Notes: generated from the sequence alone by a model not told the origin. A stretch of 64,000 nt of DNA from Dialister sp. (GCF_051885895.1 NZ_JBJEXP010000079.1:58146-122145), one strand, 5' to 3'. Positions 3,268 to 61,816 are shown, numbered from the stretch's first letter. Made by a program: numbers and translations.

Positions 3268-4251
3268 TCATTTCGTCAATTCAAAGGGACAGGCTTTTCC
3301 TTCCCTGAACTGCAGATAGGATTCAAAATTATTTTTTGACATATCATACACATCCTTTTCCGTGTAAAAGGCAGTGTGGGGCGTATGGATCACATTGGGG
3401 AAGGAGCGCAGGATGGCCAGCTTGTCATCATCCAGGGGCTGGTCTATATAGTTCAGCCGTTTGTGCTCGTTTTCCGTGACATCAAGACCGGCACCTCCTA
3501 TTTTGCCGGATTTGATGCCCCGGATGAGGGCGTCGGTGTCTACCAGCTTTCCCCGCGCCGTGTTAATGAGGATCACGTGGTCCTTCATTTTGGAAATGGT
3601 TTCATCATTGATGAGGTAATGGTTTTCTTCTGTGGCATTCATATGAAGGGTGATGATGTCCGATTCCCGAAGGAGGGTGTCCAGGTCCACATAGGTGACG
3701 AAGTTCTCTATGTCCCTGTTCCTGTACAGGTCATAGCCCAGAAGGCGGCAGCCGAAGCCGCGGAGGTGGCGGGCCACGGTGCTTCCGATATGGCCGGTGC
3801 CGATGATGCCTACGGTGGAGTCCGATATTTCCAGTCCCATTTTTCCTTGCAGCGTGAAATCGTTACAGCGGGAAGACTCAATGATCAGTTTCAGCTTTCG
3901 GCTGCAGGCCAGCATGAGCATGATGGCATAATTGGCCACGCTGTTTGGCGGATATCCCGTGTTACTTACGCGGAGCCCGATTTTTTTCGCATGGGCCGTA
4001 TCTACATGATCATAGCCGATGGTACGGCAGAGGATGTATCGAATTCCCGCTGCCTTTGCCCGGTCCAGAAGGGCCGCGTCCACGGAGGTGGACTCCATGA
4101 TGCTGATAGCATCAAACCCTTTTGACAAAGGAAGGGTATCCGATGAAAACTGCTCTTCCGTATAGGCAAAGGGTACACCATATTCACCGGAAAGCTTCCG
4201 GCAGATATCCAATTCGTCAAATTTTCGAAGTCCATAAAAGAAAATGCCCAT
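3268..4251 (-). CDS. D-isomer-specific 2-hydroxyacid dehydrogenase (D-lactate dehydrogenase-like)
   Basis: GIIGTGHIG Rossmann motif, LINTARG, GLDV, HTPHTAFYT; ATG 4251 after GAGGTG RBS. Confidence 0.88.
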   Translation of the reverse strand: MGIFFYGLRKFDELDICRKLSGEYGVPFAYTEEQFSSDTLPLSKGFDAISIMESTSVDAALLDRAKAAGIRYILCRTIGYDHVDTAHAKKIGLRVSNTGYPPNSVANYAIMLMLACSRKLKLIIESSRCNDFTLQGKMGLEISDSTVGIIGTGHIGSTVARHLRGFGCRLLGYDLYRNRDIENFVTYVDLDTLLRESDIITLHMNATEENHYLINDETISKMKDHVILINTARGKLVDTDALIRGIKSGKIGGAGLDVTENEHKRLNYIDQPLDDDKLAILRSFPNVIHTPHTAFYTEKDVYDMSKNNFESYLQFREGKACPFELTK

Positions 4252-27239: not shown

Positions 27240-27320
27240 TGATTTTCTGCACTGCGCCGGAAGGCAAAAATGGTATCTTTCTGTTAAAGGCCGCTGTGCG
27301 GCCTTTTTTCATTTTCCCCC

Positions 27321-27349
27321 TTGACGTTTCGTAAATGCTATTGTATCCT
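27321..27349 (+). promoter_or_regulatory. sigmaA-type promoter of amtB-PII
   Basis: TTGACG-N17-TATCCT. Confidence 0.55.
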
Positions 27350-27392
27350 ATTAACATACATAGGGCCGAGAGGCCAAAACTACATATTTTTT

Positions 27393-27475
27393 GACAAAGA
27401 TGTCTGATAGGAGTATTCATATCAGGCTTTTTCTTTTGGACAAAGGCGCCCGGGAATTTTCCGGGCGCCTTTGTC
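27393..27475 (+). promoter_or_regulatory. Putative ANTAR-target leader with terminator
   Basis: GAC-AAAGAT-GTC and GAC-AAAGGC-GCC hexaloops (A1,G4); terminator 27402-27437; 15-bp hairpin 27439-27475. Confidence 0.5.
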
Positions 27476-27536
27476 ATTGGAAGGAAAGCCGGTGATTCCA
27501 TCAGACCTCTTTTGTTCAGGAGAGGGAGTGGGTTTT

Positions 27537-29351
27537 ATGAAAAAAATGGAAGCGGTTGTACGAAAGTGGCCTCTGCTTCTGGCTGCCCTGACCATGCCGA
27601 CCGTGGTTATGGCTGCAGATACGGAAGGCCGGTATTCTTCGGTGGATACCATCTGGGTGCTTTTAGGCGCTATCCTGGTTTACTTTATGCAGCCCGGGTT
27701 CGCCATGGTGGAAACAGGACTGACCCGTGCAAAGAATGCGGGCAATATCGTCATGAAGAATTTCATGGATTTTGCTCTGGGCACCGTGGTATTCTGGTTT
27801 CTGGGCTTTGGTCTCATGTTTGGTACGGACATCGGCGGCATCATCGGCACGCCGGACCTCTTTGTCACCCATTTCCAGGTGCCTGATGATGCAGGCTATA
27901 CACCCATGACATACCTCTTCTTCCAGACGGTATTCTGTGCGACCTCGGCTACCATCGTTTCCGGGGCTATGGCAGAACGGACCAAGTTTTCCGCCTACTG
28001 CATCTATTCCGTAGTGATTTCTCTTCTGATTTATCCTATTTCCGGACACTGGATCTGGGGCGGCGGCTGGCTCTCCCAGCTGGGCTTCCATGATTTCGCC
28101 GGCTCCACCTGCGTTCATCTGGTAGGCGGTGTATGTGCCCTGGTAGGAGCATGGCTCCTGGGACCAAGAATCGGCAAGTACAATAAGGACGGCAGCGTAA
28201 ATGCCATTCCGGGCCACAGCATTACCCTGGCCTGCCTGGGCATGTTCATCCTGTGGATGGGCTGGTTCGGATTCAACGGCGGCTCCACGGTTTCCATGAC
28301 CGGTGATGAAGTCATCGAATCTGCAGGCCATATCATGATTACCACCAACCTGGCTGCAGCAGTAGCTGCCTGCACCACCATGATCGTTACCTGGGTGAAA
28401 TACGGCAAACCTGATGTTTCCATGACACTGAACGGCGGCCTGGCCGGCCTCGTTGCCATTACCGCCGGATGCGATACCGTAACGGTACCCGGATCCTTCT
28501 TCATCGGCCTTATCGCCGGCGTATTCATTGTCTATGCTGTTGAATTCATTGACCAGAAAATGAAAATCGATGATCCCGTAGGCGCTGTAGCAGCTCACGG
28601 CGGATGCGGCGCACTGGGCACCATCCTCACCGGTTTCTTCTCCGAATCAGACGGTCTTCTCTATACGGGAGATCCTCATTATCTCTTCATCCAGATCCTG
28701 GGTGTAGTGGTTGTAGCTCTTTATGTATTCATTGCCATTAATATTGTATTCCGCCTCATCCGTGCCACCATCGGTCTCCGCGTCAGCAGAGAAGAAGAAA
28801 TCAACGGCCTGGACTTCGAGGAACACGGTCTGGCTTCCGCTTATGCCGATTTCATGATGGTTCCGGAAACAGCAGAGGAAAAGATAGAAGCCGGCAAGGC
28901 TCCGGCCAATGCAGTAGAAATCCCCATGGACAAGGAAGTACCGGAAACGGTGGTACCGAAAGAACCGCCGGCAGACGGACACCGTCTCTACTGTGTCACC
29001 ATTATTACTTCGGACAAGCGGTTTGAAATTCTGAAAGCTTCCATGGAAGCCATCGGCATTACCGGCATGACTGTCACCAAAGCCCTCGGGTTCGGTCTGG
29101 AAAAGGGACAGACCCAGATGTACCGCGGCGCTGCCGTTTCTGCCAAACTTCTGCCTAAGGTGCGTGTGGATATCGTCGTATCCAAGATCTCCCCCAGAAC
29201 AGTGATTGAAGTGGCCAAGAAAGCCCTGTATACCGGCAAGTACGGCGACGGCAAGGTCTTTGTTACCACTGTGGATAATGCAGTGAAGATCCGTACCGGC
29301 GAAGAAGGCTACGATGCCCTGCAGGATTATCCGATTGAAGAAAGTAAATAA
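27537..29351 (+). CDS. amtB: Ammonium transporter fused to a C-terminal PII (GlnK-like) domain
   Basis: FMQPGFAMVETG, HDFAGSTCVH, WFGFNGGS, DDPVGAVAAHG; then GFG...YRG...LLPKVRVDIVV...TGKYGDGKVF...IRTGE. Confidence 0.95.
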   Translation: MKKMEAVVRKWPLLLAALTMPTVVMAADTEGRYSSVDTIWVLLGAILVYFMQPGFAMVETGLTRAKNAGNIVMKNFMDFALGTVVFWFLGFGLMFGTDIGGIIGTPDLFVTHFQVPDDAGYTPMTYLFFQTVFCATSATIVSGAMAERTKFSAYCIYSVVISLLIYPISGHWIWGGGWLSQLGFHDFAGSTCVHLVGGVCALVGAWLLGPRIGKYNKDGSVNAIPGHSITLACLGMFILWMGWFGFNGGSTVSMTGDEVIESAGHIMITTNLAAAVAACTTMIVTWVKYGKPDVSMTLNGGLAGLVAITAGCDTVTVPGSFFIGLIAGVFIVYAVEFIDQKMKIDDPVGAVAAHGGCGALGTILTGFFSESDGLLYTGDPHYLFIQILGVVVVALYVFIAINIVFRLIRATIGLRVSREEEINGLDFEEHGLASAYADFMMVPETAEEKIEAGKAPANAVEIPMDKEVPETVVPKEPPADGHRLYCVTIITSDKRFEILKASMEAIGITGMTVTKALGFGLEKGQTQMYRGAAVSAKLLPKVRVDIVVSKISPRTVIEVAKKALYTGKYGDGKVFVTTVDNAVKIRTGEEGYDALQDYPIEESK

Positions 29352-37492: not shown

Positions 37493-38083
37493 TCAGTCTC
37501 TGACTTCGATAACCTCGTTTTCGCTCTTCCTTGCCAGAGGGCAGGGGTTGTGGTTCGGGTAGCCGAAGGACATGGCCATAACCATTTCTCCTTCGCCCAG
37601 CCAGTCGTGAAGTTCTTCGTAGGCAAAGAAAATATTTCCGATCCAAAGGCTCCCGATGCCCATGGATTCTGCCTGGAGAGCCATGTTTTCCGCAGCGGCG
37701 CCGATGGCCTGCACATCGGAAAGTTCATGAATCTTTTCGGCGGCAGTCCAGTTGTCGGTGAGGGGACGGCCTGTGGGGTTGACGATGAAAACAAGGACCG
37801 GTGCCTGTTCCATGCATTTCAGGGTGAAGCGGGCGTTGGTAAAGAGCTCCGGTGCGCCGGCCAGAACGCCTTCTCCCTTTTCTGATTTTTCAATGCCCTT
37901 TTCCATCAGGGCCAGGGCGGTTTTCTTGCTTTCTCCCTTGACCACGATGAACTTCCAGGGCTGGCGGTTTTTGGCAGAAGGAGCCCACATGCCTGCACGA
38001 AGGATTTCCCGCATGTCTACCTTGGAAATGTCAGTGTTCTTGAAGAAACGGACGCTTCTTCTTTTGAAAATCAGATTGTACAT
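37493..38083 (-). CDS. Nitroreductase family protein (paralogue of 34892-35536)
   Basis: IFKRRSVRFF, AGMWAPSAKNRQPW, AAENMAL, GSLW. Confidence 0.9.
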   Translation of the reverse strand: MYNLIFKRRSVRFFKNTDISKVDMREILRAGMWAPSAKNRQPWKFIVVKGESKKTALALMEKGIEKSEKGEGVLAGAPELFTNARFTLKCMEQAPVLVFIVNPTGRPLTDNWTAAEKIHELSDVQAIGAAAENMALQAESMGIGSLWIGNIFFAYEELHDWLGEGEMVMAMSFGYPNHNPCPLARKSENEVIEVRD

Positions 38084-38283
38084 AGTATTTCCACCTTTCC
38101 AGTTTTTATCTTCCTGTTAGAATCATACCGCTTTTATTATACACCGTTTTACAGGTTTGGTGTGAAAAAAGTCGTTTCCCGCAGGTGGTGAGAGCTTCGG
38201 CATCCTGCTCAGCAGCGCCTGTTTTGAGCCATTTTTCTGTGCCCTGTTTCCTGTCCTTAAAGGGTATGTTAAAATATAGGAAA

Positions 38284-38541
38284 TCCCTAAAAATGTCATT
38301 TTAGGGAGGGCCGCAGGCCGTTTTATAAGCCGTACAGCCGGCGCGAAAAGAGTTTTCGCAAGCTGAGGGAGGATCTTCCTCCATGAGTTGATACGAAAGA
38401 TTTTTCGTACAGGATTTTAGGGAATGCTGATATGCCGATTGGATTCAGTCATGGATTTTTATGGGGGTTTTGGACCGCATAAAAATCAAAGGATGAGGAA
38501 AAAGACAGAAGATGCTGGTTTTCCTGACGGATACATATCAG
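38284..38541 (+). ncRNA. Candidate structured leader/ncRNA upstream of mcrB-like gene
   Basis: Extended -10 TG-T-TAAAAT at 38267-38275; seven stems identified by eye; not a family I recognise. Confidence 0.4.
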
Positions 38542-38566
38542 TCCCCTGGAAAGAAGGAAATTGAAT

Positions 38567-40666
38567 ATGGGGAATTATAATTCAAATTACGGGAGTTCTG
38601 ACAGTTCTTTTTTTGCACTCCGCCAGGCTGACGGTAAGGTGCTTGGCCGTGTCCGCCCGGGAGTGAAGCTGTCTACGCCGCAGCCGGGAGTGAAGGATTA
38701 CCGTTTTTTTGTGGATCCGCTCTCCCCGCTGCCCAAGGGATTTGAAGAATCGGAAAAGCATGGATTTACAGGATTTATGAGCCGTATCGGCTGCGGGTAC
38801 AATGCTTTTGCCAATGAAGCGGATGCCCTGAATTATTTAAAGACCGTTTTCGGTGATGCATTCGTCACCTTTACGCCGGCCATCCGGAATAATAAGTTTT
38901 TTGTGCTGGATGATATGCAGCTGGAAGGCAGGACGCCTTTCATGGATGTGGATACCCATTTTTATCCCATTCCCGCTTTCGGCACCGTAGACCAGCCGCC
39001 CTTTTCCGGGGATATCAACAAGTTCTGCAGCCATATTCTGAATGGAAAGCCGCTGCCCGGCCTTTCCAAGAAATACTGGAATAATGATATACAGCCCCGG
39101 GTAATTATGGCAGCCACCAGAAATTTTGAGGGAAAGATCGGCCCCTGGGTGGTGTTTGCACCCCTCTATGACGATGCCTTTGACTCCACCGTTATCGGAG
39201 AAGGAGGCGCCTACTTCCATGTGAAGAACAATGGACCTCTGGGCTATGGAGTCGTGGACTTCAAAAATTCGGAACTCTTTTCCCATATCCTGCGCTGCAC
39301 CCATTCGCCCCTGTGGTTCGTGCCGGAGGAATTTATCCCCGATTTCCGGCTGAAGCTGAAGCCGGTGCCGGCAGACGGCGACCTGCTTGCAGACAGCGGC
39401 GTGCTGGTGAATCCTTTCTCCTCCCAGGACAGCATCATCCTTTCGGAAGAAGGAAATTCATTGGAAGGGAAAAAATTCAGAGAAGAGGATATGGAGGAAC
39501 TGATCCGGAGTCTTACATCGAAAGAAGAGAAGAAGCCGGTTAATGACGGAGAAGAGGAAATCACTTCCGAAGAAAAAGAAAGGCCGCTGGATGAGGCGGG
39601 CTTCCTGGAAAGACTGTCAGAAGCAGCAGAACGGTCCGGCCTTCTTTACGCAGAGGAAGACCTCATCAACTTTCATATTTCCCTTAAATCGTCCCGCCTG
39701 ACCATCCTGGCAGGAATGAGCGGCACCGGCAAATCGGGACTGGTGCGCCTTTACGGAAGAGCCCTGGGCCTTCCGGAAGAACAGGTGCGCTTCCTTGCCG
39801 TGCGTCCTTCCTGGATGGATGACGGAGACATCCTGGGATATGTGGATGTGAAGAATATGGTATACCGCAGTGCGGATACGGGACTGGCGGAATTTCTGGC
39901 GGAAGCGGCAGCGCATCCGGAGAAGATGTACCTGATCTGCTTTGATGAAATGAATCTGGCCAGAGCAGAGCACTATTTTGCCCAGTTCATTTCCGTACTG
40001 GAAAAAGAGGAAAATCCGGTGATCTGCCTGTACAATCCATCCCTGAAGGGAAAGCTGTACAATGGAGAATCCTATCCGGCGGAAATCCCTGTGGGAAGGA
40101 ATGTGCTCTTTACAGGGACGGTGAATGTGGATGAATCGACCTATCACTTTTCGGACAAGATTCTGGACAGGGCCAATGTGATTACCCTGCATCAGGGAAA
40201 GTTCCGCGACCTGCTCCAGCTGGGGAAGAAGGAAAAAATTGATTATCCGGAAATCCCGTCATCCCTCTTTGAAAGCTTCTGCCATGCGGACGGGCTGGGC
40301 CTTTCGGAAGAGGAACTGGATCTTCTGGACGCACTGAATGATGCTTTCCGGAAAAGCGGGATCCAGTGCGGCATCGGATTCCGTGTTGCCTGCCAGATGG
40401 GCCGGTATCTGGAAAATATACCGGAGGGACTCTCCTTTAACCGGGAAGAAGGGCTGGATGCCCAGGTGGTGCAGCGCATACTGACCAAGCTTCGGGGCTC
40501 TTCCCAGCAGCTCAGCACCCTGGTGTCCACCAATGACAAGGGAGAGCTGACCGGCTCCCTTCTGGATGTGCTGAACCGCTTCCATGGACTTTCTCCATTC
40601 ACTTCAGCCCGCAGCGTGCTGGAAGAAAAAGCCAGGGAGCTGAAACTCTATGACTACACCATCTAA
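38567..40666 (+). CDS. mcrB: McrB-like AAA+ GTPase (NxD variant) with uncharacterised N-terminal domain
   Basis: AGMSGTGKS Walker A, VRPSW, CFDEMNLAR Walker B, TVNVDES, DKILDRAN; start ATG 38567 (TTG 38561 alternative). Confidence 0.85.
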   Translation: MGNYNSNYGSSDSSFFALRQADGKVLGRVRPGVKLSTPQPGVKDYRFFVDPLSPLPKGFEESEKHGFTGFMSRIGCGYNAFANEADALNYLKTVFGDAFVTFTPAIRNNKFFVLDDMQLEGRTPFMDVDTHFYPIPAFGTVDQPPFSGDINKFCSHILNGKPLPGLSKKYWNNDIQPRVIMAATRNFEGKIGPWVVFAPLYDDAFDSTVIGEGGAYFHVKNNGPLGYGVVDFKNSELFSHILRCTHSPLWFVPEEFIPDFRLKLKPVPADGDLLADSGVLVNPFSSQDSIILSEEGNSLEGKKFREEDMEELIRSLTSKEEKKPVNDGEEEITSEEKERPLDEAGFLERLSEAAERSGLLYAEEDLINFHISLKSSRLTILAGMSGTGKSGLVRLYGRALGLPEEQVRFLAVRPSWMDDGDILGYVDVKNMVYRSADTGLAEFLAEAAAHPEKMYLICFDEMNLARAEHYFAQFISVLEKEENPVICLYNPSLKGKLYNGESYPAEIPVGRNVLFTGTVNVDESTYHFSDKILDRANVITLHQGKFRDLLQLGKKEKIDYPEIPSSLFESFCHADGLGLSEEELDLLDALNDAFRKSGIQCGIGFRVACQMGRYLENIPEGLSFNREEGLDAQVVQRILTKLRGSSQQLSTLVSTNDKGELTGSLLDVLNRFHGLSPFTSARSVLEEKARELKLYDYTI

Positions 40667-42401
40667 GCTGCCCTTCAGCCTGTCCTTTTCCGGCGGCTGG
40701 GATAAAGGGACACATCCTTTTACCCGGTTCACGGAAAATCCGTCGGAGCTGGGGGAAGATATGATGCCGGGGCTGACGCTGACGGAAAACCAGGACATTT
40801 ATGTCCGCTTTGACGGGCCTAAAGGATTCCGCTTTACCATGGACGGACTGGATGTGGTCACCATTCCCGGACAGGAAAGAGAAAACGGGCAGACCTATAT
40901 TGCCCCCTTCCGGCGGCAGGATCAGCCGCTTCTCCTTTTTGAAGGACAGGATTTTCCCCTGGTGCCGGGCTACTATGTGCTGACGGTGGAAGGAAACGGG
41001 AAAAGCTGGTACGGGATTATGGAAATTACGCCCAAGTACATGGGCAAACAGAGCTGGCAGGACATGCGGGACGAGCTGGCCGATGAAATCCGCACCCTGT
41101 CCTTTGATTTCATGAAAAAGAACATCCATATTTCCAAGGCATTGGAAGGGGCGCTGGGTCTCAGCACATCCATGCTCCTCCGCTTTTATACCATCAGCGA
41201 TGAGTCGCCGGTGGTGCTGAATGTGCTGGATGAGCTTTCCCATACAGCCAACGCCCGTCTGGTACTGAAGCTGAAGCAGACCCGTCTGGAGGAGGGGCGC
41301 CGCATGGATCCCCATATCCGTCCCCAGCACGTGAAAGAAAGGACGGGCATGGGACGCATGCCTGCCCTGTATACGGAAATCACCAGAGATGTGGCGGAAA
41401 ACCGCTTTGCCAAGTCCATTCTTCTGTCGCTGGACCGCATTCTGCAGCAGTTTCTGGAAGAAATCAGAGGCCCTGTGGAAAGGCTGGAGCGAAAGCAGGC
41501 GGAATTACGGAAATATACCCGGGGACTGGAATATAAAACCGGTGAAAAGGCGCTGTCCCGTCTCCGCCTGTATGAACAGCGGGCACGGCGCATTAAGAAC
41601 AGCATCCGCCGCGTCTCTCTGGCGCCCTGGTTTGAAGAGGCCCGGGGCGAGATGCCCGGCGAAGTGCCTATGGCTGTTTTTATGGATCCAAGGTACAGCG
41701 TGCTCTACCGGCTGTATAAGAATCTCTCGGATCCGGCGGGAAGCCTGGATGTGTCCAGTTTCTACCAGTTCCAGTGGAAACGGACGGATAAACTGTATGA
41801 GCTGTGGGGCTTCCTCCAGTTCATCAAGGCGCTGACAGCGAAGGGCTGGGAGCTGGAGGAAGGCATTTCCGTCATTAAAGAGGAAGGACGGTACCGCCTG
41901 TCCAGTTTGGAGTCAGGTACGGAAATCAAGCTGCGGCGCGGCGGTGAGGAAGTGCATCTGACCTATGACGGAATTCTTCCTTCCTCTTCTTCGGAAACGG
42001 ATCGGGAAAATCATCCTCTGTATACCAATAATTCCCACCGCCAGCCGGATCTCCGCCTGGATTATTACCGGGAGGGACTTTATTACGGCTCCCTGGTGGC
42101 GGATTTCAAATACAGGGATATTCTCTTCCTCTGGCAGGATGAAACAAGAAGCGCCAGCCTTCGCCGCCAGTTCAACGCGTACAGGGACATGAATACCCGG
42201 TTTTACCGGGATTATGATGAAACCTCTTCCCTCCGCGACAGCCGGCCGGTGAAGGAGGTATGGGCTCTGTTTCCCCGGGAGATTCCGGGAAGAAGTGATG
42301 AAGACTACAGCCTCCGCTTCATTCCTCTGGCGCCGGGACTCAAAAGCAACGGGCGTCTGGCGGAGGAACTGGAAACCTACCTGGCTTCCCTGCGGGAATG
42401 A
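40650..42401 (+). CDS. mcrC: McrC-like DUF2357 / PD-(D/E)xK nuclease
   Basis: Beta-rich N-terminus, ENRFAK, YSVLYRLY, TDKLYELW, RQPDLRL...ADFKYR; overlaps mcrB stop by 17 bp. Confidence 0.82.
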   Translation: MTTPSKLPFSLSFSGGWDKGTHPFTRFTENPSELGEDMMPGLTLTENQDIYVRFDGPKGFRFTMDGLDVVTIPGQERENGQTYIAPFRRQDQPLLLFEGQDFPLVPGYYVLTVEGNGKSWYGIMEITPKYMGKQSWQDMRDELADEIRTLSFDFMKKNIHISKALEGALGLSTSMLLRFYTISDESPVVLNVLDELSHTANARLVLKLKQTRLEEGRRMDPHIRPQHVKERTGMGRMPALYTEITRDVAENRFAKSILLSLDRILQQFLEEIRGPVERLERKQAELRKYTRGLEYKTGEKALSRLRLYEQRARRIKNSIRRVSLAPWFEEARGEMPGEVPMAVFMDPRYSVLYRLYKNLSDPAGSLDVSSFYQFQWKRTDKLYELWGFLQFIKALTAKGWELEEGISVIKEEGRYRLSSLESGTEIKLRRGGEEVHLTYDGILPSSSSETDRENHPLYTNNSHRQPDLRLDYYREGLYYGSLVADFKYRDILFLWQDETRSASLRRQFNAYRDMNTRFYRDYDETSSLRDSRPVKEVWALFPREIPGRSDEDYSLRFIPLAPGLKSNGRLAEELETYLASLRE

Positions 42402-42418: not shown

Positions 42419-42452
42419 AAAAGCGGCACCTTCTGCGGAAGGTGCCGCTTTT
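42419..42452. terminator. Bidirectional terminator mcrC / ABC exporter
   Basis: AAAAGCGGCACCTTC-TGCG-GAAGGTGCCGCTTTT. Confidence 0.85.
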
Positions 42453-49576: not shown

Positions 49577-49677
49577 GGCAGAAGGGAAGAATTCCGACCT
49601 CAATGCATAGAATTTCCATAGGTGAAAAAGTCCCCTTTTCATGTTTCTTTTTCTATGATACAATTACATTCATCTAC

Positions 49678-49771
49678 GGCGATGGAGTTCGCCGGGCTTC
49701 GGGAAGGCTTTTCCCGCCGAATGCTCTTTGAGATGATGACTCCTGTTCCTTTTGGGAACAGGAGATTTTTT
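49678..49771 (+). ncRNA. Fluoride riboswitch with terminator platform
   Basis: GGCGATGGAGTTCGCC ... AATGCT ... TGATGACTCCT; terminator CTCCTGTTCC/GGAACAGGAG+T run overlaps the aptamer 3' end. Confidence 0.93.
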
Positions 49772-60154: not shown

Positions 60155-60386
60155 ATCCGGAAAGAAGCGGGCGGTCCCTTTTCCGAAAGCTCAAGTCTCA
60201 CACACCGGAAACCCCTATGAGACAGGGCACTGCATTCATGGCATAAACCTTCTGCTTGTGTCGTGGATGATTGACGTTTACATTATGCAAAACGGAATGG
60301 ACTTATGCTATTCTTAATCTGCGGTTTTCCGTTAGATTAAAGTGCATGCAGCGGTTTAGCAGCTGCGAAGTTTGAGTAAGCAATAT

Positions 60387-60429
60387 AAAAGCGGTATATC
60401 ATGGATTTCCGTGATATACCGCTTTTTTT
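60387..60429. terminator. Bidirectional terminator between SBP and MATE
   Basis: AAAAGCGGTATATCATGG / CCGTGATATACCGCTTTT. Confidence 0.8.
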
Positions 60430-60487
60430 CATAGCGCATCGGGCGGATGGAAAAGTTCCTGCCGCTTATGGAAAATCTTTCTGTTCC

Positions 60488-61816
60488 TTATCCTGCCTGG
60501 GGCAGAAATTTTCCTTTTGCGGAAAGGCGGCTGACCAGGAAGGAAGCGCAGGAAGCACGGATGACCTGATCAAGGAAGAGGGCACACCAGGTGCCGATCA
60601 GTCCCATGTCCAGTCCATAGATAAAGAAAGCAGTGAGGAGAGGACGAAGGAAAGTAATGGACAGGAAGGAATAGGCCGCCACCTGGGCTGTCTGGCCGCT
60701 GCCCCGGAGAACGCCGGCGCCCCAGAGGGCAATGGCTTCCGGATAACTTACGAAAGCGATAAAAACCATAATGGTTCCGGACAGAGCAAGAAGGGAAGAA
60801 TCGGCGGTATAAAAGGTAAAGATATCTTCTGCAAAGAGGAGAATAGTGCCGCAGGCAGCAGTGGATAAAAGGAGACACCAGCGAAGGCCGGTCTTCCTGT
60901 ACTGCTGCCAGTCAGAGAAATTTCCCTTTCCCACAGCCTGTCCGGCGGTAACCATGCCTGCTTTTCCGAAACCCATAATGAAATCATAATACACATCACA
61001 GATATTCATGCAGATGCTGTGTACCGCAAAGGGGACAGTGCCGAGCCCCGCCGCCATGCGGGAAAAAAGCACCATGCCGATGCGTTCGCTGCCCTGCTCG
61101 CTGAGGACACTTCCGAAAAGAGGTCCCACCGTTTTGAAATAGGCTGCATCGGGAAGCCAGGCGCCGCCCTGGAAGAATCCATTCCGTTTCAGGAGGAAAA
61201 AGGAATAGACCAGGGAGAAAAGGGTGCCGGCGGCAGTGCCGAACGCAGCGCCCATGACGCCGAAGGCAGGAAGAGGACCGGCGCCGCGGATAAGAAGAAA
61301 ACTGCATACTGCATTCAGCAGGTTTCCGCAGATATTGGTTTTCATAATGGACGCCGTATCTCCATAGCCCAGCTGCACCGCCTGGAGAATCAGGGTGAGG
61401 GAGGTGAAGTACACGGCTAGAAGCGCCAGAGGCCCGTAGTCCATGGCTAAAGGCAGGTAGTCCTCTGAGGCTCCCATCAGAATAAAAATATCTTTCAGGA
61501 AAAACAGAAACAGCAGATGGAGGGCGCCCAGAGCCAGAGCTCCGAGAAACAGGGATTTTTTCAGAAGATCAGCAGAAGGCTCCTTTTCCTCCTTTCCCGC
61601 ATGGCGGCAGGAAACCAGTGTGACGGCAGAGGCCAGGGAACGGGAAAAGCAGAGGAGCACAAGGCGGGGCTGGAGAAAAATACTGACTGCTGCCACGGAA
61701 AGGCTTCCCAGGGCGCCTACGAGGATAAGATCCGTGGAAGCCAGAAGAATCATGAAAAGTCCCTCCAGCGCGGCAGGCAGTGCAATTTTCAGATAGTGTC
61801 CGTCGTATTTGTTCAT
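60488..61816 (-). CDS. MATE family efflux transporter
   Basis: IALPAALE, about 12 TM, two MatE repeats, GQAVG, GVLRGSG. Confidence 0.9.
   Translation of the reverse strand: MNKYDGHYLKIALPAALEGLFMILLASTDLILVGALGSLSVAAVSIFLQPRLVLLCFSRSLASAVTLVSCRHAGKEEKEPSADLLKKSLFLGALALGALHLLFLFFLKDIFILMGASEDYLPLAMDYGPLALLAVYFTSLTLILQAVQLGYGDTASIMKTNICGNLLNAVCSFLLIRGAGPLPAFGVMGAAFGTAAGTLFSLVYSFFLLKRNGFFQGGAWLPDAAYFKTVGPLFGSVLSEQGSERIGMVLFSRMAAGLGTVPFAVHSICMNICDVYYDFIMGFGKAGMVTAGQAVGKGNFSDWQQYRKTGLRWCLLLSTAACGTILLFAEDIFTFYTADSSLLALSGTIMVFIAFVSYPEAIALWGAGVLRGSGQTAQVAAYSFLSITFLRPLLTAFFIYGLDMGLIGTWCALFLDQVIRASCASFLVSRLSAKGKFLPQAG

What the first reader, a model, noticed from the sequence alone, without database searches (positions are those of the whole stretch)
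38267..38566. ~260-nt multi-hairpin RNA with a built-in switch upstream of the McrB-like gene
Seen: an extended -10 places the likely TSS near 38282. TCCCTAAAA (38284-38292) can pair with either TTTTAGGGA at 38299 or an identical copy at 38415, the latter closing a multi-stem domain. Inner stems are GGCC/GGCC, CAGC/GCTG around GCGAAAA/TTTTCGC, GGAGGA/TCCTCC and TACGAAA/TTTCGTA. A second domain CTGATATG-CCG / CGG-ATA-CATATCAG (38427-38541) encloses GATTTTTATG/CATAAAAATC and ends about 12 nt before the RBS. Inference: a regulatory leader or an ncRNA partner (antitoxin or guide) of the nuclease pair. Caution: intergenic hairpins are common in this genome.
Basis: partly seen in the sequence, partly recalled or inferred. 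Interest (0 to 1): 0.62.

Follow-up and report, generated by a model that had tools for sequence, protein, structure and literature searches.

The report
Conserved hairpin-rich leader of McrBC operon
The flagged stretch is the long, hairpin-rich untranslated start of the messenger RNA for a two-gene McrBC-type DNA-cutting defence system in a Dialister-like gut bacterium; relatives keep it and no RNA database describes it, but the proposed built-in switch is not supported.

Summary
The 285-nt stretch folds better than all 200 shuffles (z -4.3) and ranks in the top 1% of the 64 kb window.

It is the 5' UTR of a two-gene operon: an invariant extended -10 promoter, the leader, an mcrB-like gene, a DUF2357/PD-(D/E)xK mcrC-like gene, then a strong terminator.

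Dialister homologues (65-86% protein identity, synonymous sites near saturation) keep four things:
- the promoter;
- a hairpin at the very 5' end, with about a dozen different stem sequences;
- a ~100-nt core: four stems, two carrying an invariant CGAAA/UUUCG;
- the ribosome-binding region.

A covariance model of the core hit, at E below 0.1 on the + strand, only these leaders in 0.7 Mb. Rfam has no match. In one homologue a metatranscriptome contig runs from about 9 nt after the predicted start into the gene.

The "switch" is not supported. The second TTTTAGGGA pairs with CCCTGGAA to close an inserted domain, and no relative has a second partner for the 5' arm. Nothing suggests a separate antitoxin or guide RNA.

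Most likely it is a cis-acting leader that protects the mRNA and sets expression, with a sequence-specific binding hairpin of unknown partner.

The parts
38265..38276 (+). Extended -10 promoter TATGTTAAAATA (TG-n-TAAAAT), no recognisable -35. Predicted transcription start is about 38282-38283.
   Evidence: Read directly. TATGnTAAAATA is invariant in the closest Dialister homologues and sits 130-290 nt before their ATG. Sequence conservation begins abruptly here. It is the only exact copy in the window.
38284..38307 (+). H1, the 5'-terminal stem-loop: UCCCUAAAA / UUUUAGGGA, 9 bp with a 6-nt loop.
   Evidence: Pair probability 0.94. A hairpin starts 5-9 nt (13 in L180) after the -10 in about 12 lineages, each with a different stem sequence. 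These windows fold at a mean of -9.0 against -5.4 kcal/mol for controls, p 1.4e-4.
38309..38319 (+). Small hairpin GGCC-GCA-GGCC.
   Evidence: Present in the MFE. The L002/L003 equivalent is (U)GCC-GCAA-GGC(G/A).
38329..38342 (+). S1 hairpin GCCG / CGGC. Its loop UACAGC contains CAGC (38335-38338).
   Evidence: Pair probability 0.98. Variants are ACCG/CGGU, GCCC/GGGC and GUCG/CGGC.
38343..38359 (+). Hairpin A: GCGAAAA-GAG-UUUUCGC, a CGAAA/UUUCG-type hairpin.
   Evidence: Pair probability 0.91. L001 and L031 have 8-12 extra nt inside the loop while the base of the stem is kept. L010 has the compensatory version GGAAAAG/CUUUUCC.
38362..38365 (+). GCUG, a possible pseudoknot partner of CAGC 38335-38338.
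   Evidence: CAGC and GCUG are both present in five lineages and both absent in three. There is no covariation. The pairing is not in the nested fold.
38368..38382 (+). SD-like hairpin GGAGGA-UCU-UCCUCC.
   Evidence: Pair probability 0.96. Compensatory GGAGAG/CUCUCC in L004/L005; GGAGG/CCUCC in L031; absent in L011 and L001.
38388..38414 (+). Hairpin B with its conserved flanks: UUGA-UACGAAA-GAUU-UUUCGUA-CAGGA.
   Evidence: Pair probability 0.93. About 37 of 38 nt are identical to L031, where 4-fold sites are only 53% identical. All 119 aligned cells are Watson-Crick and one base pair covaries, U-A to C-G. CGAAA-N3-7-TTTCG occurs 37 times in 36.9 kb of leaders against 12 times in 1.17 Mb elsewhere.
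38415..38551 (+). Domain 2, a lineage-specific inserted multi-stem domain. It is closed by UUUUAGGG (38415-22) : CCCUGGAA (38544-51) and CUGAUAUG (38427-34) : CAUAUCAG (38534-41). The inner hairpin is 38454-38487.
   Evidence: Domain MFE -48.1 kcal/mol, z -4.2; pair probabilities 0.94-0.997. The domain is absent in L004, L011, L183, L006, L007 and L009, where hairpin B sits 9-14 nt from the SD. Analogous closed domains with different sequence occur in L001, L031, L002 and L180.
38549..38569 (+). Ribosome-binding region GAAAGAAGGAAAUUGAAUAUG, with start codon ATG at 38567.
   Evidence: About 26 nt identical across the closest homologues. SD core unpaired probability 0.83 with 45 nt of CDS included and 0.49 with 90 nt.
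38567..40666 (+). mcrB-like AAA+ (AAA_5) gene, 699 aa.
   Evidence: Pfam AAA_5 at 19.5 bits, below the 22-bit cut-off. PADLOC PDC-M26A, E 2.4e-38. PDB E. coli McrB, E 0.005. Fold matches to AAA+ motors including McrBC 6hz4. A Dialister relative (72% identical) is named 'McrB family protein' by NCBI.
40650..42401 (+). mcrC-like gene (DUF2357 + PD-(D/E)xK nuclease), overlapping mcrB by 17 nt.
   Evidence: Pfam DUF2357 at 36 bits and PDDEXK_7 at 29.7 bits, both above their cut-offs.
42420..42452 (.). Bidirectional intrinsic terminator that ends the operon.
   Evidence: A 15-bp stem (GC-rich core of 11 bp) with an A-run before it and a T-run after it.

Best explanation
The region is the ~284-nt 5' untranslated leader of a two-gene McrBC-type (type IV restriction-like) defence operon.

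Transcription starts about 7 nt after an invariant extended -10 promoter. The RNA folds into a chain of self-contained hairpins.

1. A stem-loop begins 1-2 nt from the 5' end. It most likely shields the transcript from 5'-end-dependent decay, as the RppH / RNase J / RNase E pathways are blocked by 5' stem-loops in other bacteria.
2. A conserved ~100-nt core follows: S1, hairpin A, an SD-like hairpin and hairpin B. The two hairpins built on an invariant CGAAA/UUUCG are constrained in sequence as well as in pairing. I therefore infer that they are the docking site of a trans-acting factor, an RNase or an RNA-binding regulator of unknown identity, that sets mRNA half-life or translation.
3. A lineage-specific inserted domain is zipped shut by its own closing helix, so the Shine-Dalgarno sequence stays accessible.

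The net effect would be a fixed, buffered expression level for a nuclease that could harm its own cell, not a two-state switch.

Shown: the anatomy, the conservation, the covariation, the strand specificity and co-transcription in a homologue. Inferred: the stabilising role of the 5' hairpin and the existence of a binding factor.
For: **Operon context.** Promoter, leader, mcrB-like gene, mcrC-like gene and terminator follow one another.

**Selection on the leader.**
- 4-fold degenerate sites between the window and its closest homologues are only 44-56% identical.
- Against that background the promoter (12/12), the hairpin B block (about 37/38) and the SD/start block (about 26 nt) are essentially invariant.
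- Sequence upstream of the promoter is unalignable.

**The 5' hairpin.** It sits at the same distance from the -10 in about a dozen lineages, each with a different stem. More distant Veillonellaceae homologues carry GAAAGGAGG near the 5' end instead, the sequence of the STAB-SD stabiliser.

**The core.**
- CM R1 hit, at E below 0.1 on the + strand, only mcrB leaders in 702 kb over both strands, and also found L180 and L183.
- On the model-fitted alignment 94.2% of cells pair, 19 of 23 pairs change on both sides, 0 of 500 shuffles reach this, and slid partners give 37-58%.
- In leader-only + strand rows there are 299 Watson-Crick, 12 G-U and 1 A-C cells. The + strand folds 11.7 kcal/mol better than the - strand. 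Both point to RNA rather than a DNA palindrome.
- A 1-nt loop insertion in L001 keeps hairpin B but breaks the only frame that runs over it.

**Transcription.**
- No + strand terminator lies in the leader.
- The metatranscriptome contig of X22 covers L031 3796-4219. It starts about 9 nt after the predicted start site and runs 219 nt into the CDS. Nothing in that run covers the promoter, 3685-3795.

**Background.** 5' stem-loops and STAB-SD elements stabilise whole mRNAs in Bacillus (review PMC3997798).
Against: - No RNA data exist for this organism. The homologue evidence consists of assembled contigs without strand or depth resolution, and a second homologue (L118) was uninformative.
- The stabiliser role is inferred from Bacillus and E. 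coli. It has not been tested in Negativicutes, and I did not verify that this genome encodes RNase J or RNase Y.
- Hairpin B shows almost no covariation (one pair), so its structure rests on thermodynamics plus sequence conservation.
- The covariation counts were made on an alignment fitted to the model, from about 8-9 lineages that are not independent.
- No candidate binding protein is encoded nearby.
- Half of the leader (domain 2) is lineage-specific and may have no function.
Confidence: 0.55

Rival explanations
1. A two-state riboregulator. The 5' arm TCCCTAAAA toggles between the adjacent TTTTAGGGA and the copy at 38415, remodelling the leader in response to a ligand, a protein or temperature, and so changing mcrB expression.
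For: - Both partners are perfect 9-mers. No shuffled arm gives a 9-nt distal complement (0 of 200).
- The forced alternative fold is only 4.5 kcal/mol above the MFE.
- CAGC/GCUG could form an alternative helix or a pseudoknot in the core.
Against: - Ensemble probability of the distal pairing is 0.0015, against 0.94 for the local hairpin.
- In 16 other lineages the best distal complement is 4-6 nt, no better than shuffled arms.
- In L002 the local hairpin changed on both sides while the distal TTTTAGGG did not.
- The distal copy covaries with CCCUGGAA / UUUCCUGGAA instead.
- Neither state contains a terminator or sequesters the SD.
- Rfam finds no aptamer.
Confidence: 0.1
2. A separate non-coding RNA that works with the nuclease pair, as an antitoxin, guide or scaffold, either processed out of the leader or terminated before mcrB.
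For: - The element is tightly and specifically associated with mcrB-like genes.
- The core is conserved in sequence beyond what pairing alone needs.
- Some McrBC relatives are predicted to target RNA (PMC11090510).
Against: - No terminator lies between the leader and the gene.
- An RNA contig in a homologue is continuous from the leader into the CDS.
- There are no tandem repeats of the ToxI type.
- The leader has no significant complementarity to anything else in the operon or the window.
- Length and content vary from 123 to about 290 nt between close relatives, and reach about 600-740 nt in L008, L010 and L039.
Confidence: 0.07
3. The palindromes act in DNA, as operators for a dimeric transcription factor that represses the operon, rather than in RNA.
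For: - CGAAA-N-TTTCG is a perfect inverted repeat, is sequence-invariant, and occurs twice.
- H1 overlaps the +1 region, where repressors often bind.
Against: - The distance between half-sites ranges from 4 to 16 nt, through self-complementary insertions.
- H1 differs completely between lineages.
- G-U cells outnumber A-C cells 12 to 1 in the stems, and the + strand folds better than the - strand.
- The sites lie 60-130 nt downstream of the start of transcription.
- No regulator gene is linked; the neighbouring genes differ between loci.
Confidence: 0.07
4. Largely non-functional accretion. Hairpin modules, MITE-like inserts or slipped duplications pile up in a tolerant 5' UTR, and only the promoter and the ribosome-binding site matter.
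For: - Modules come and go between close relatives; domain 2 is present in some and absent in others.
- L008, L010 and L039 carry 350-600 nt of low-complexity repeats at the same insertion point.
- Other intergenic regions in the window are even more hairpin-rich.
Against: - The core and H1 are maintained against saturated neutral divergence, with compensatory changes.
- The inserts are always closed by a helix that leaves the SD free.
- No other copy of any leader module is found in the window or in 1.2 Mb of related loci.
Confidence: 0.15

Closest known systems
5'-terminal stem-loop mRNA stabilisers (B. subtilis aprE leader, ermC; E. coli ompA 5' UTR)
   Same: A stable hairpin lies within 1-3 nt of the predicted 5' end of a long leader, followed by an accessible SD. 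[quoted passage not shown]
   Different: No half-life data exist and the start site is only predicted. This leader also carries a sequence-constrained ~100-nt core that those stabilisers lack.
STAB-SD of B. thuringiensis cryIIIA (GAAAGGAGG in a 5' UTR)
   Same: More distant Veillonellaceae homologues of the same operon carry GAAAGGAGG about 20 nt after the -10, in place of the 5' hairpin. The window has an SD-like GGAGGA inside the leader.
   Different: In the window GGAGGA is locked in its own hairpin (pair probability 0.96), so it is unlikely to dock a 30S subunit. In some homologues the element may instead serve a 12-13-codon uORF.
B. subtilis hbs highly structured 5' UTR
   Same: A long, structured 5' UTR upstream of a strong ribosome-binding site. 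The structure and the initiating ribosomes jointly control access of RNase Y and RNase J1 (PMC5737220, abstract).
   Different: No sequence or structural homology, and no evidence here for a 5'/3' UTR interaction or a mapped cleavage site.
Riboswitches and attenuator leaders (Rfam cis-regulatory families)
   Same: A conserved multi-stem 5' leader with some invariant nucleotides and a possible pseudoknot.
   Different: No Rfam match even at E up to 10. No terminator/antiterminator pair. No conserved alternative pairing. The leader does not sequester the SD.
Type III toxin-antitoxin RNAs (ToxI-like)
   Same: A structured RNA encoded immediately upstream of a potentially toxic defence protein.
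   Different: No tandem direct repeats and no terminator between the RNA and the gene.

Membership tests
McrBC-type (type IV restriction-like) operon | McrB-like AAA+ GTPase subunit | tested here: met
   AAA_5 domain at residues 380-483, at 19.5 bits (below Pfam's 22-bit cut-off). E. coli McrB chains in the PDB, E 0.005. Fold match to McrBC 6hz4 among other AAA+ motors. PADLOC PDC-M26A, E 2.4e-38. A Dialister relative (72% identical) is named 'McrB family protein' by NCBI.
McrBC-type (type IV restriction-like) operon | Adjacent McrC with an N-terminal DUF2357 and a PD-(D/E)xK nuclease | tested here: met
   DUF2357 at 36 bits and PDDEXK_7 at 29.7 bits, both above their cut-offs. The gene overlaps mcrB by 17 nt.
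5'-terminal stem-loop mRNA stabiliser | Stable hairpin within a few nt of the transcript's 5' end | tested here: met
   H1 starts at 38284 and the predicted start site is 38282-83. The same placement is seen in about 12 lineages. The start site is predicted, not mapped.
5'-terminal stem-loop mRNA stabiliser | Removing the hairpin shortens mRNA half-life | not testable with these tools
   Needs a rifampicin chase or a reporter assay.
Riboswitch / attenuator leader | Recognisable aptamer family | tested here: not met
   No relevant Rfam hit in the window at E up to 10, and none at the gathering threshold in 16 homologous loci.
Riboswitch / attenuator leader | Expression platform: an intrinsic terminator or an SD-sequestering helix that competes with an alternative helix | tested here: not met
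   No + strand terminator in 38267-38566. The SD is not paired with leader sequence. The alternative pairing is not conserved.
Type III TA antitoxin RNA (ToxI-like) | Tandem direct repeats of a ~30-40 nt unit upstream of the toxin, separated from it by a terminator | tested here: not met
   The only direct repeats are 8-10 nt two-copy matches. TRF finds nothing there. There is no terminator.
Dispersed intergenic repeat (REP / BOX / MITE) | Multiple copies elsewhere in the genome | tested here: inconclusive
   No second copy in the 64 kb window. No significant copy outside mcrB leaders in 702 kb of related loci; the only other matches are at E 0.4-0.5. The whole genome could not be scanned.
Transcription-factor operator palindrome | Fixed half-site spacing and no strand bias in mismatches | tested here: not met
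   Spacing between CGAAA and TTTCG is 4-16 nt. G-U to A-C cells are 12 to 1.

The most novel reading that the evidence does not exclude
The conserved ~100-nt core is a specific three-dimensional RNA receptor dedicated to this defence system. The core comprises S1 with CAGC in its loop, hairpin A, GCUG forming an H-type pseudoknot, the SD-like hairpin, and the invariant hairpin B.

On this reading it binds McrB or McrC themselves (autoregulation or an RNA cofactor), or a phage- or stress-derived signal. Expression or activity of the nuclease would then be coupled to infection. That would make it a previously undescribed class of defence-associated riboregulator.
Probability: 0.12. Interest if true: 0.7.

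Novelty: new member of a known kind. Interest (0 to 1): 0.42.

Why it matters
How bacteria keep self-damaging defence nucleases at a safe but ready level is poorly understood, and almost nothing is known for McrBC-type systems beyond E. coli.

This work defines a conserved, unannotated leader RNA motif with no Rfam match. In the sequence searched it is found only upstream of one clade of McrBC-like operons in Dialister, a common human-gut genus.

Three testable elements are defined:
- a 5' cap hairpin;
- an invariant CGAAA/UUUCG hairpin pair;
- a helix-closed insertion site.

If the core binds a factor, that would be a handle on post-transcriptional control of a defence system. If not, it is a clean natural example of a modular mRNA-stabilising leader in Negativicutes, where RNA decay has hardly been studied.

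Tried and rejected
- **Rfam.** Searched the whole window, the region at E up to 10, and 16 homologous loci. Nothing relevant.
- **RNA-seq for the window itself.** No RNA runs are available; only wastewater DNA metagenomes hold the sequence.
- **RNA contigs on the D. invisus-like homologue L118.** Contigs cross the promoter, so they are uninformative.
- **Viral contigs.** A scan for the hairpin B pattern gave 19 matches. None is next to an McrB/McrC homologue and all look like chance.
- **Leader peptide.**
  - The 46-codon ORF 38424-38564 has no usable SD (AGGGA abuts the ATG) and lies in a domain that is not conserved.
  - A 10-codon TTG frame over hairpin B is broken by a 1-nt insertion in L001.
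  - Both were rejected.
- **MAFFT/RNAalifold on the core.** The indel-rich first hairpins were misaligned, so only hairpin B was recovered. A hand-specified structure and a CM replaced it.
- **Structure prediction and fold search of McrB, to identify its N-terminal domain.** Only the AAA+ module matched. The beta-rich domain at about residues 130-285 stays unassigned.
- **Complementarity between the leader and the rest of the operon.** Nothing significant.
- **Literature.** No paper on a McrBC leader RNA was found. The McrBC census PMC11090510 does not mention one.

Full report
**1. What is in the sequence**

The finding lies in the 483-nt gap between two genes. One is a nitroreductase gene on the minus strand (37493-38083). 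The other is a 699-codon gene on the plus strand starting at ATG 38567.

- That gene has an AAA_5/McrB-like module. Evidence: Pfam at 19.5 bits (just under the cut-off); PDB McrB at E 0.005; PADLOC PDC-M26A at E 2.4e-38; a Dialister relative (72% identical) named 'McrB family protein' by NCBI.
- It is followed, with a 17-nt overlap, by a DUF2357 + PD-(D/E)xK McrC-like gene (40650-42401).
- A strong bidirectional terminator follows at 42420-42452.

So the finding sits in front of a compact two-gene McrBC-type operon. The closest relatives of the protein are from Dialister.

**2. Check of the observation**

- The extended -10, TATGTTAAAATA, is at 38265-38276.
- RNA 38282-38566 folds at -96.5 kcal/mol, against -73.1 +/- 5.4 for shuffles (z -4.34).
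- Among 1344 GC-corrected 285-nt windows on both strands it ranks 11th. The plus strand folds 11.7 kcal/mol better than the minus strand.
- It is not the most structured stretch in the window.
- Two details change:
  - CAGC/GCTG is displaced in the nested ensemble by GCCG 38329-32 / CGGC 38339-42 (0.98 against 0.001).
  - The second TTTTAGGG pairs with CCCTGGAA 38544-51 (0.94).

**3. Comparison with relatives**

I collected 160 loci encoding relatives of the McrB-like protein from genomes and metagenomes, and five more by exact protein look-up.

In the Dialister relatives (65-86% protein identity):
- Sequence conservation begins abruptly at the extended -10 promoter, which is invariant. The promoter lies 130-290 nt before the start codon.
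- 4-fold degenerate sites in the gene are only 44-56% identical. Yet the promoter, a 38-nt block around hairpin B and a 26-nt block around the SD and start codon are essentially identical.

That is purifying selection on non-coding sequence.

**4. The 5' hairpin**

A hairpin starts 5-9 nt after the -10 (13 nt in L180), that is, at the predicted 5' end or within a few nt of it. This holds in about a dozen lineages, with quite different stems. Examples:
- UCCCUAAAA/UUUUAGGGA
- CCGAAAA/UUUUCGG
- AUUCCAAA/UUUGGAAU
- AAUGGCAAAAG/CUUUUGCCAUU
- GGAAUUUACAG/CUGUAAAUUCC
- GUGCUGAU/AUCAGCAU

. These windows fold significantly better than controls (p 1.4e-4).

Veillonellaceae homologues at about 50% identity carry GAAAGGAGG at that place instead.

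**5. The core**

From 38323 to 38423 there are four stems: S1, hairpin A, an SD-like GGAGGA/UCCUCC hairpin, and hairpin B.

*Specificity*
- A covariance model built from four sequences found significant + strand matches only in mcrB leaders in 702 kb over both strands. The other matches were minus-strand images of those leaders and two chance-level hits at E 0.4-0.5.
- It recovered two new orthologues, L180 and L183, which share the nitroreductase neighbour.

*Pairing and covariation*
- On the fitted alignment 94.2% of cells pair and 19 of 23 pairs change on both sides.
- No shuffle of 500 reaches this, and slid partners give 37-58%.
- The alignment leans towards the model and the lineages are related, so this is supportive rather than conclusive.

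*RNA or DNA*
- Restricted to plus-strand leader rows there are 299 Watson-Crick, 12 G-U and 1 A-C cells. That is the signature of RNA on this strand, not of a DNA palindrome.

*The CGAAA/UUUCG hairpins*
- Hairpins A and B are both built on an invariant CGAAA...UUUCG.
- That pattern occurs 37 times in 36.9 kb of leaders and 12 times in the other 1.17 Mb.
- The base of the stem covaries (UA, CG, GUG/CAC, GCG/CGC).
- The loop of hairpin A tolerates self-complementary insertions of 8-12 nt.
- Hairpin B itself is almost sequence-invariant (119 of 119 cells paired, one covarying pair), which suggests sequence-specific recognition.

*Possible pseudoknot*
- CAGC in the S1 loop and GCUG after hairpin A are present together in five lineages and absent together in three.
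- This fits an H-type pseudoknot, but there is no covariation to prove it.

**6. Domain 2 and the "switch"**

- In L004, L011, L183, L006, L007 and L009, hairpin B sits 9-14 nt before the SD.
- In the window, L180, L001, L031 and L002, a 65-140-nt domain is inserted exactly there. Its sequence differs in each lineage, but it is always closed by a long-range helix.
- In L008, L010 and L039 the same spot holds 350-600 nt of low-complexity repeats.
- In the window the closing helix uses the distal UUUUAGGG with CCCUGGAA. In L180 it is UUUUAGGAAA with UUUCCUGGAA, and in L002 UUUUAGGG with CCCUGGAA. So the distal copy has its own covarying partner.
It has probability 0.0015.
- In 16 other lineages the 5' arm has no second complement better than shuffled arms.

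The switch is therefore a peculiarity of this one sequence and is not conserved.

**7. Transcription**

- No RNA library holds the window's sequence.
- For the 85%-identical D. succinatiphilus-type locus L031, one metatranscriptome (X22) has a contig covering 3796-4219. It starts about 9 nt after the predicted start site (3787) and runs 219 nt into the gene. Nothing in that run covers 3685-3795, the promoter region.
- A second RNA-type library (X21) has a similar contig at 3809-4225.
- These are assembled contigs, so they show presence and continuity, not a mapped 5' end.
- There is no plus-strand terminator in the leader.
- With 45 nt of CDS included, the SD core is mostly unpaired (0.83). 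With 90 nt it can pair with a pyrimidine run at 38603-38614 (0.49 unpaired). See section 10.

**8. Interpretation**

The best reading is a cis-acting, modular 5' UTR.
- The 5' cap hairpin matches the known logic of 5' stabilisers in Bacillus and E. coli. There, occlusion of the 5' end or a STAB-SD protects the whole mRNA (PMC3997798; hbs leader, PMC5737220).
- The sequence-constrained CGAAA hairpins point to a bound factor that I cannot identify.
- Domain 2 looks like a tolerated, helix-insulated insertion.

Rivals, each with its evidence in the structured fields:
- a true switch;
- a separate ncRNA partner;
- DNA operators;
- neutral accretion of hairpins.

**9. Novelty**

- No Rfam family matches.
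- The literature search found no description of a leader RNA for McrBC systems.
- The kind of element, a structured stabilising or regulatory 5' UTR, is well known. This is a new, lineage-restricted member with an unusually well-defined conserved core.

**10. Side observations**

- The SD region GAAAGAAGGA is complementary to a pyrimidine run about 37-48 nt into the coding region (38603-38614). It is predicted to pair with that run in many lineages, including ones with a different SD (AAGAGG with CCUCUU in L118).
  - Against other windows of the same gene, this pairing ranks in the top 10% in 11 of 23 lineages.
  - It may be an additional translational brake. The evidence is moderate.
- Other items are listed under Noticed in passing.

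Noticed in passing
window 38550-38559 and 38603-38614: The SD region AAAGAAGGAA is complementary to AGTTCTTTTTTT (codons D-S-S-F-F), 37-48 nt into mcrB. The same pairing of the SD with early coding sequence is predicted in many homologues, including ones with a different SD (AAGAGG:CCUCUU in L118). Against other CDS windows it ranks in the top 10% in 11 of 23 lineages. It may be a translational brake.
   Followed up: partly
L008 about 3660-3990; L010 about 3400-3990; L039 about 950-1400: In these homologues 350-600 nt of odd low-complexity repeats lie between hairpin B and the SD. The repeats include TAGGGATTAGGG, AGTCACCAGTCAC and TTCTCACTTCTAAC, together with GTTTCACGTGAAAC palindromes. Similar repeats flank the promoters in L006, L009, L012 and L014. 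None are present in the window. Their origin is unknown.
   Followed up: partly
L025, L027, L028, L030, L042, L155, L156 (about 20 nt after the -10): Veillonellaceae homologues have GAAAGGAGG near the 5' end of the leader instead of a 5' hairpin. This is either a STAB-SD-like element or the SD of a 12-13-codon uORF (MAAAGK...). The uORF start is missing in L027.
   Followed up: no
window 38335-38338 and 38362-38365: CAGC in the loop of S1 and GCUG after hairpin A are present together in five lineages and absent together in three. The geometry fits an H-type pseudoknot with hairpin A in loop 3. There is no covariation.
   Followed up: partly
window 49669-49752 (+): Fluoride riboswitch (crcB motif), 35.9 bits, just above the gathering score. 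A CrcB gene also lies beside the nitroreductase in the syntenic locus L180.
   Followed up: no
window 42420-42452: Strong bidirectional intrinsic terminator between the mcrC-like gene and the convergent genes downstream, one of which encodes an ABC-transporter-like protein.
   Followed up: yes
window 27266-27650 (+) and 60231-60515 (+): Intergenic stretches even more hairpin-rich than the leader. 60231-60515 has z -6.3 and holds terminator hairpins between convergent ORFs. 27266-27650 has several stem-loops before a gene starting at about 27538.
   Followed up: partly
window 38087-38102 and 38546-38561: The ribosome-binding regions of the two divergent genes (nitroreductase and mcrB-like) form a 16-nt inverted repeat, 88% complementary. 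Both genes use CTGGAAAG(G/A)(T/A)GGAAAT before the start codon.
   Followed up: no
L180 229-819 and L183 213-803: The same nitroreductase gene lies divergently upstream of the mcrB-like gene in loci at 75% and 66% identity. So the operon occupies a conserved chromosomal site in this Dialister clade. Other homologues sit in different contexts.
   Followed up: no
window 38567-39420 (McrB residues 1-285): The N-terminal part of the McrB-like protein has no Pfam, NCBIfam or PDB sequence match. It includes a confidently modelled beta-rich domain at about residues 130-285. Only the AAA+ half matched known folds, so the target-recognition domain is unassigned.
   Followed up: partly
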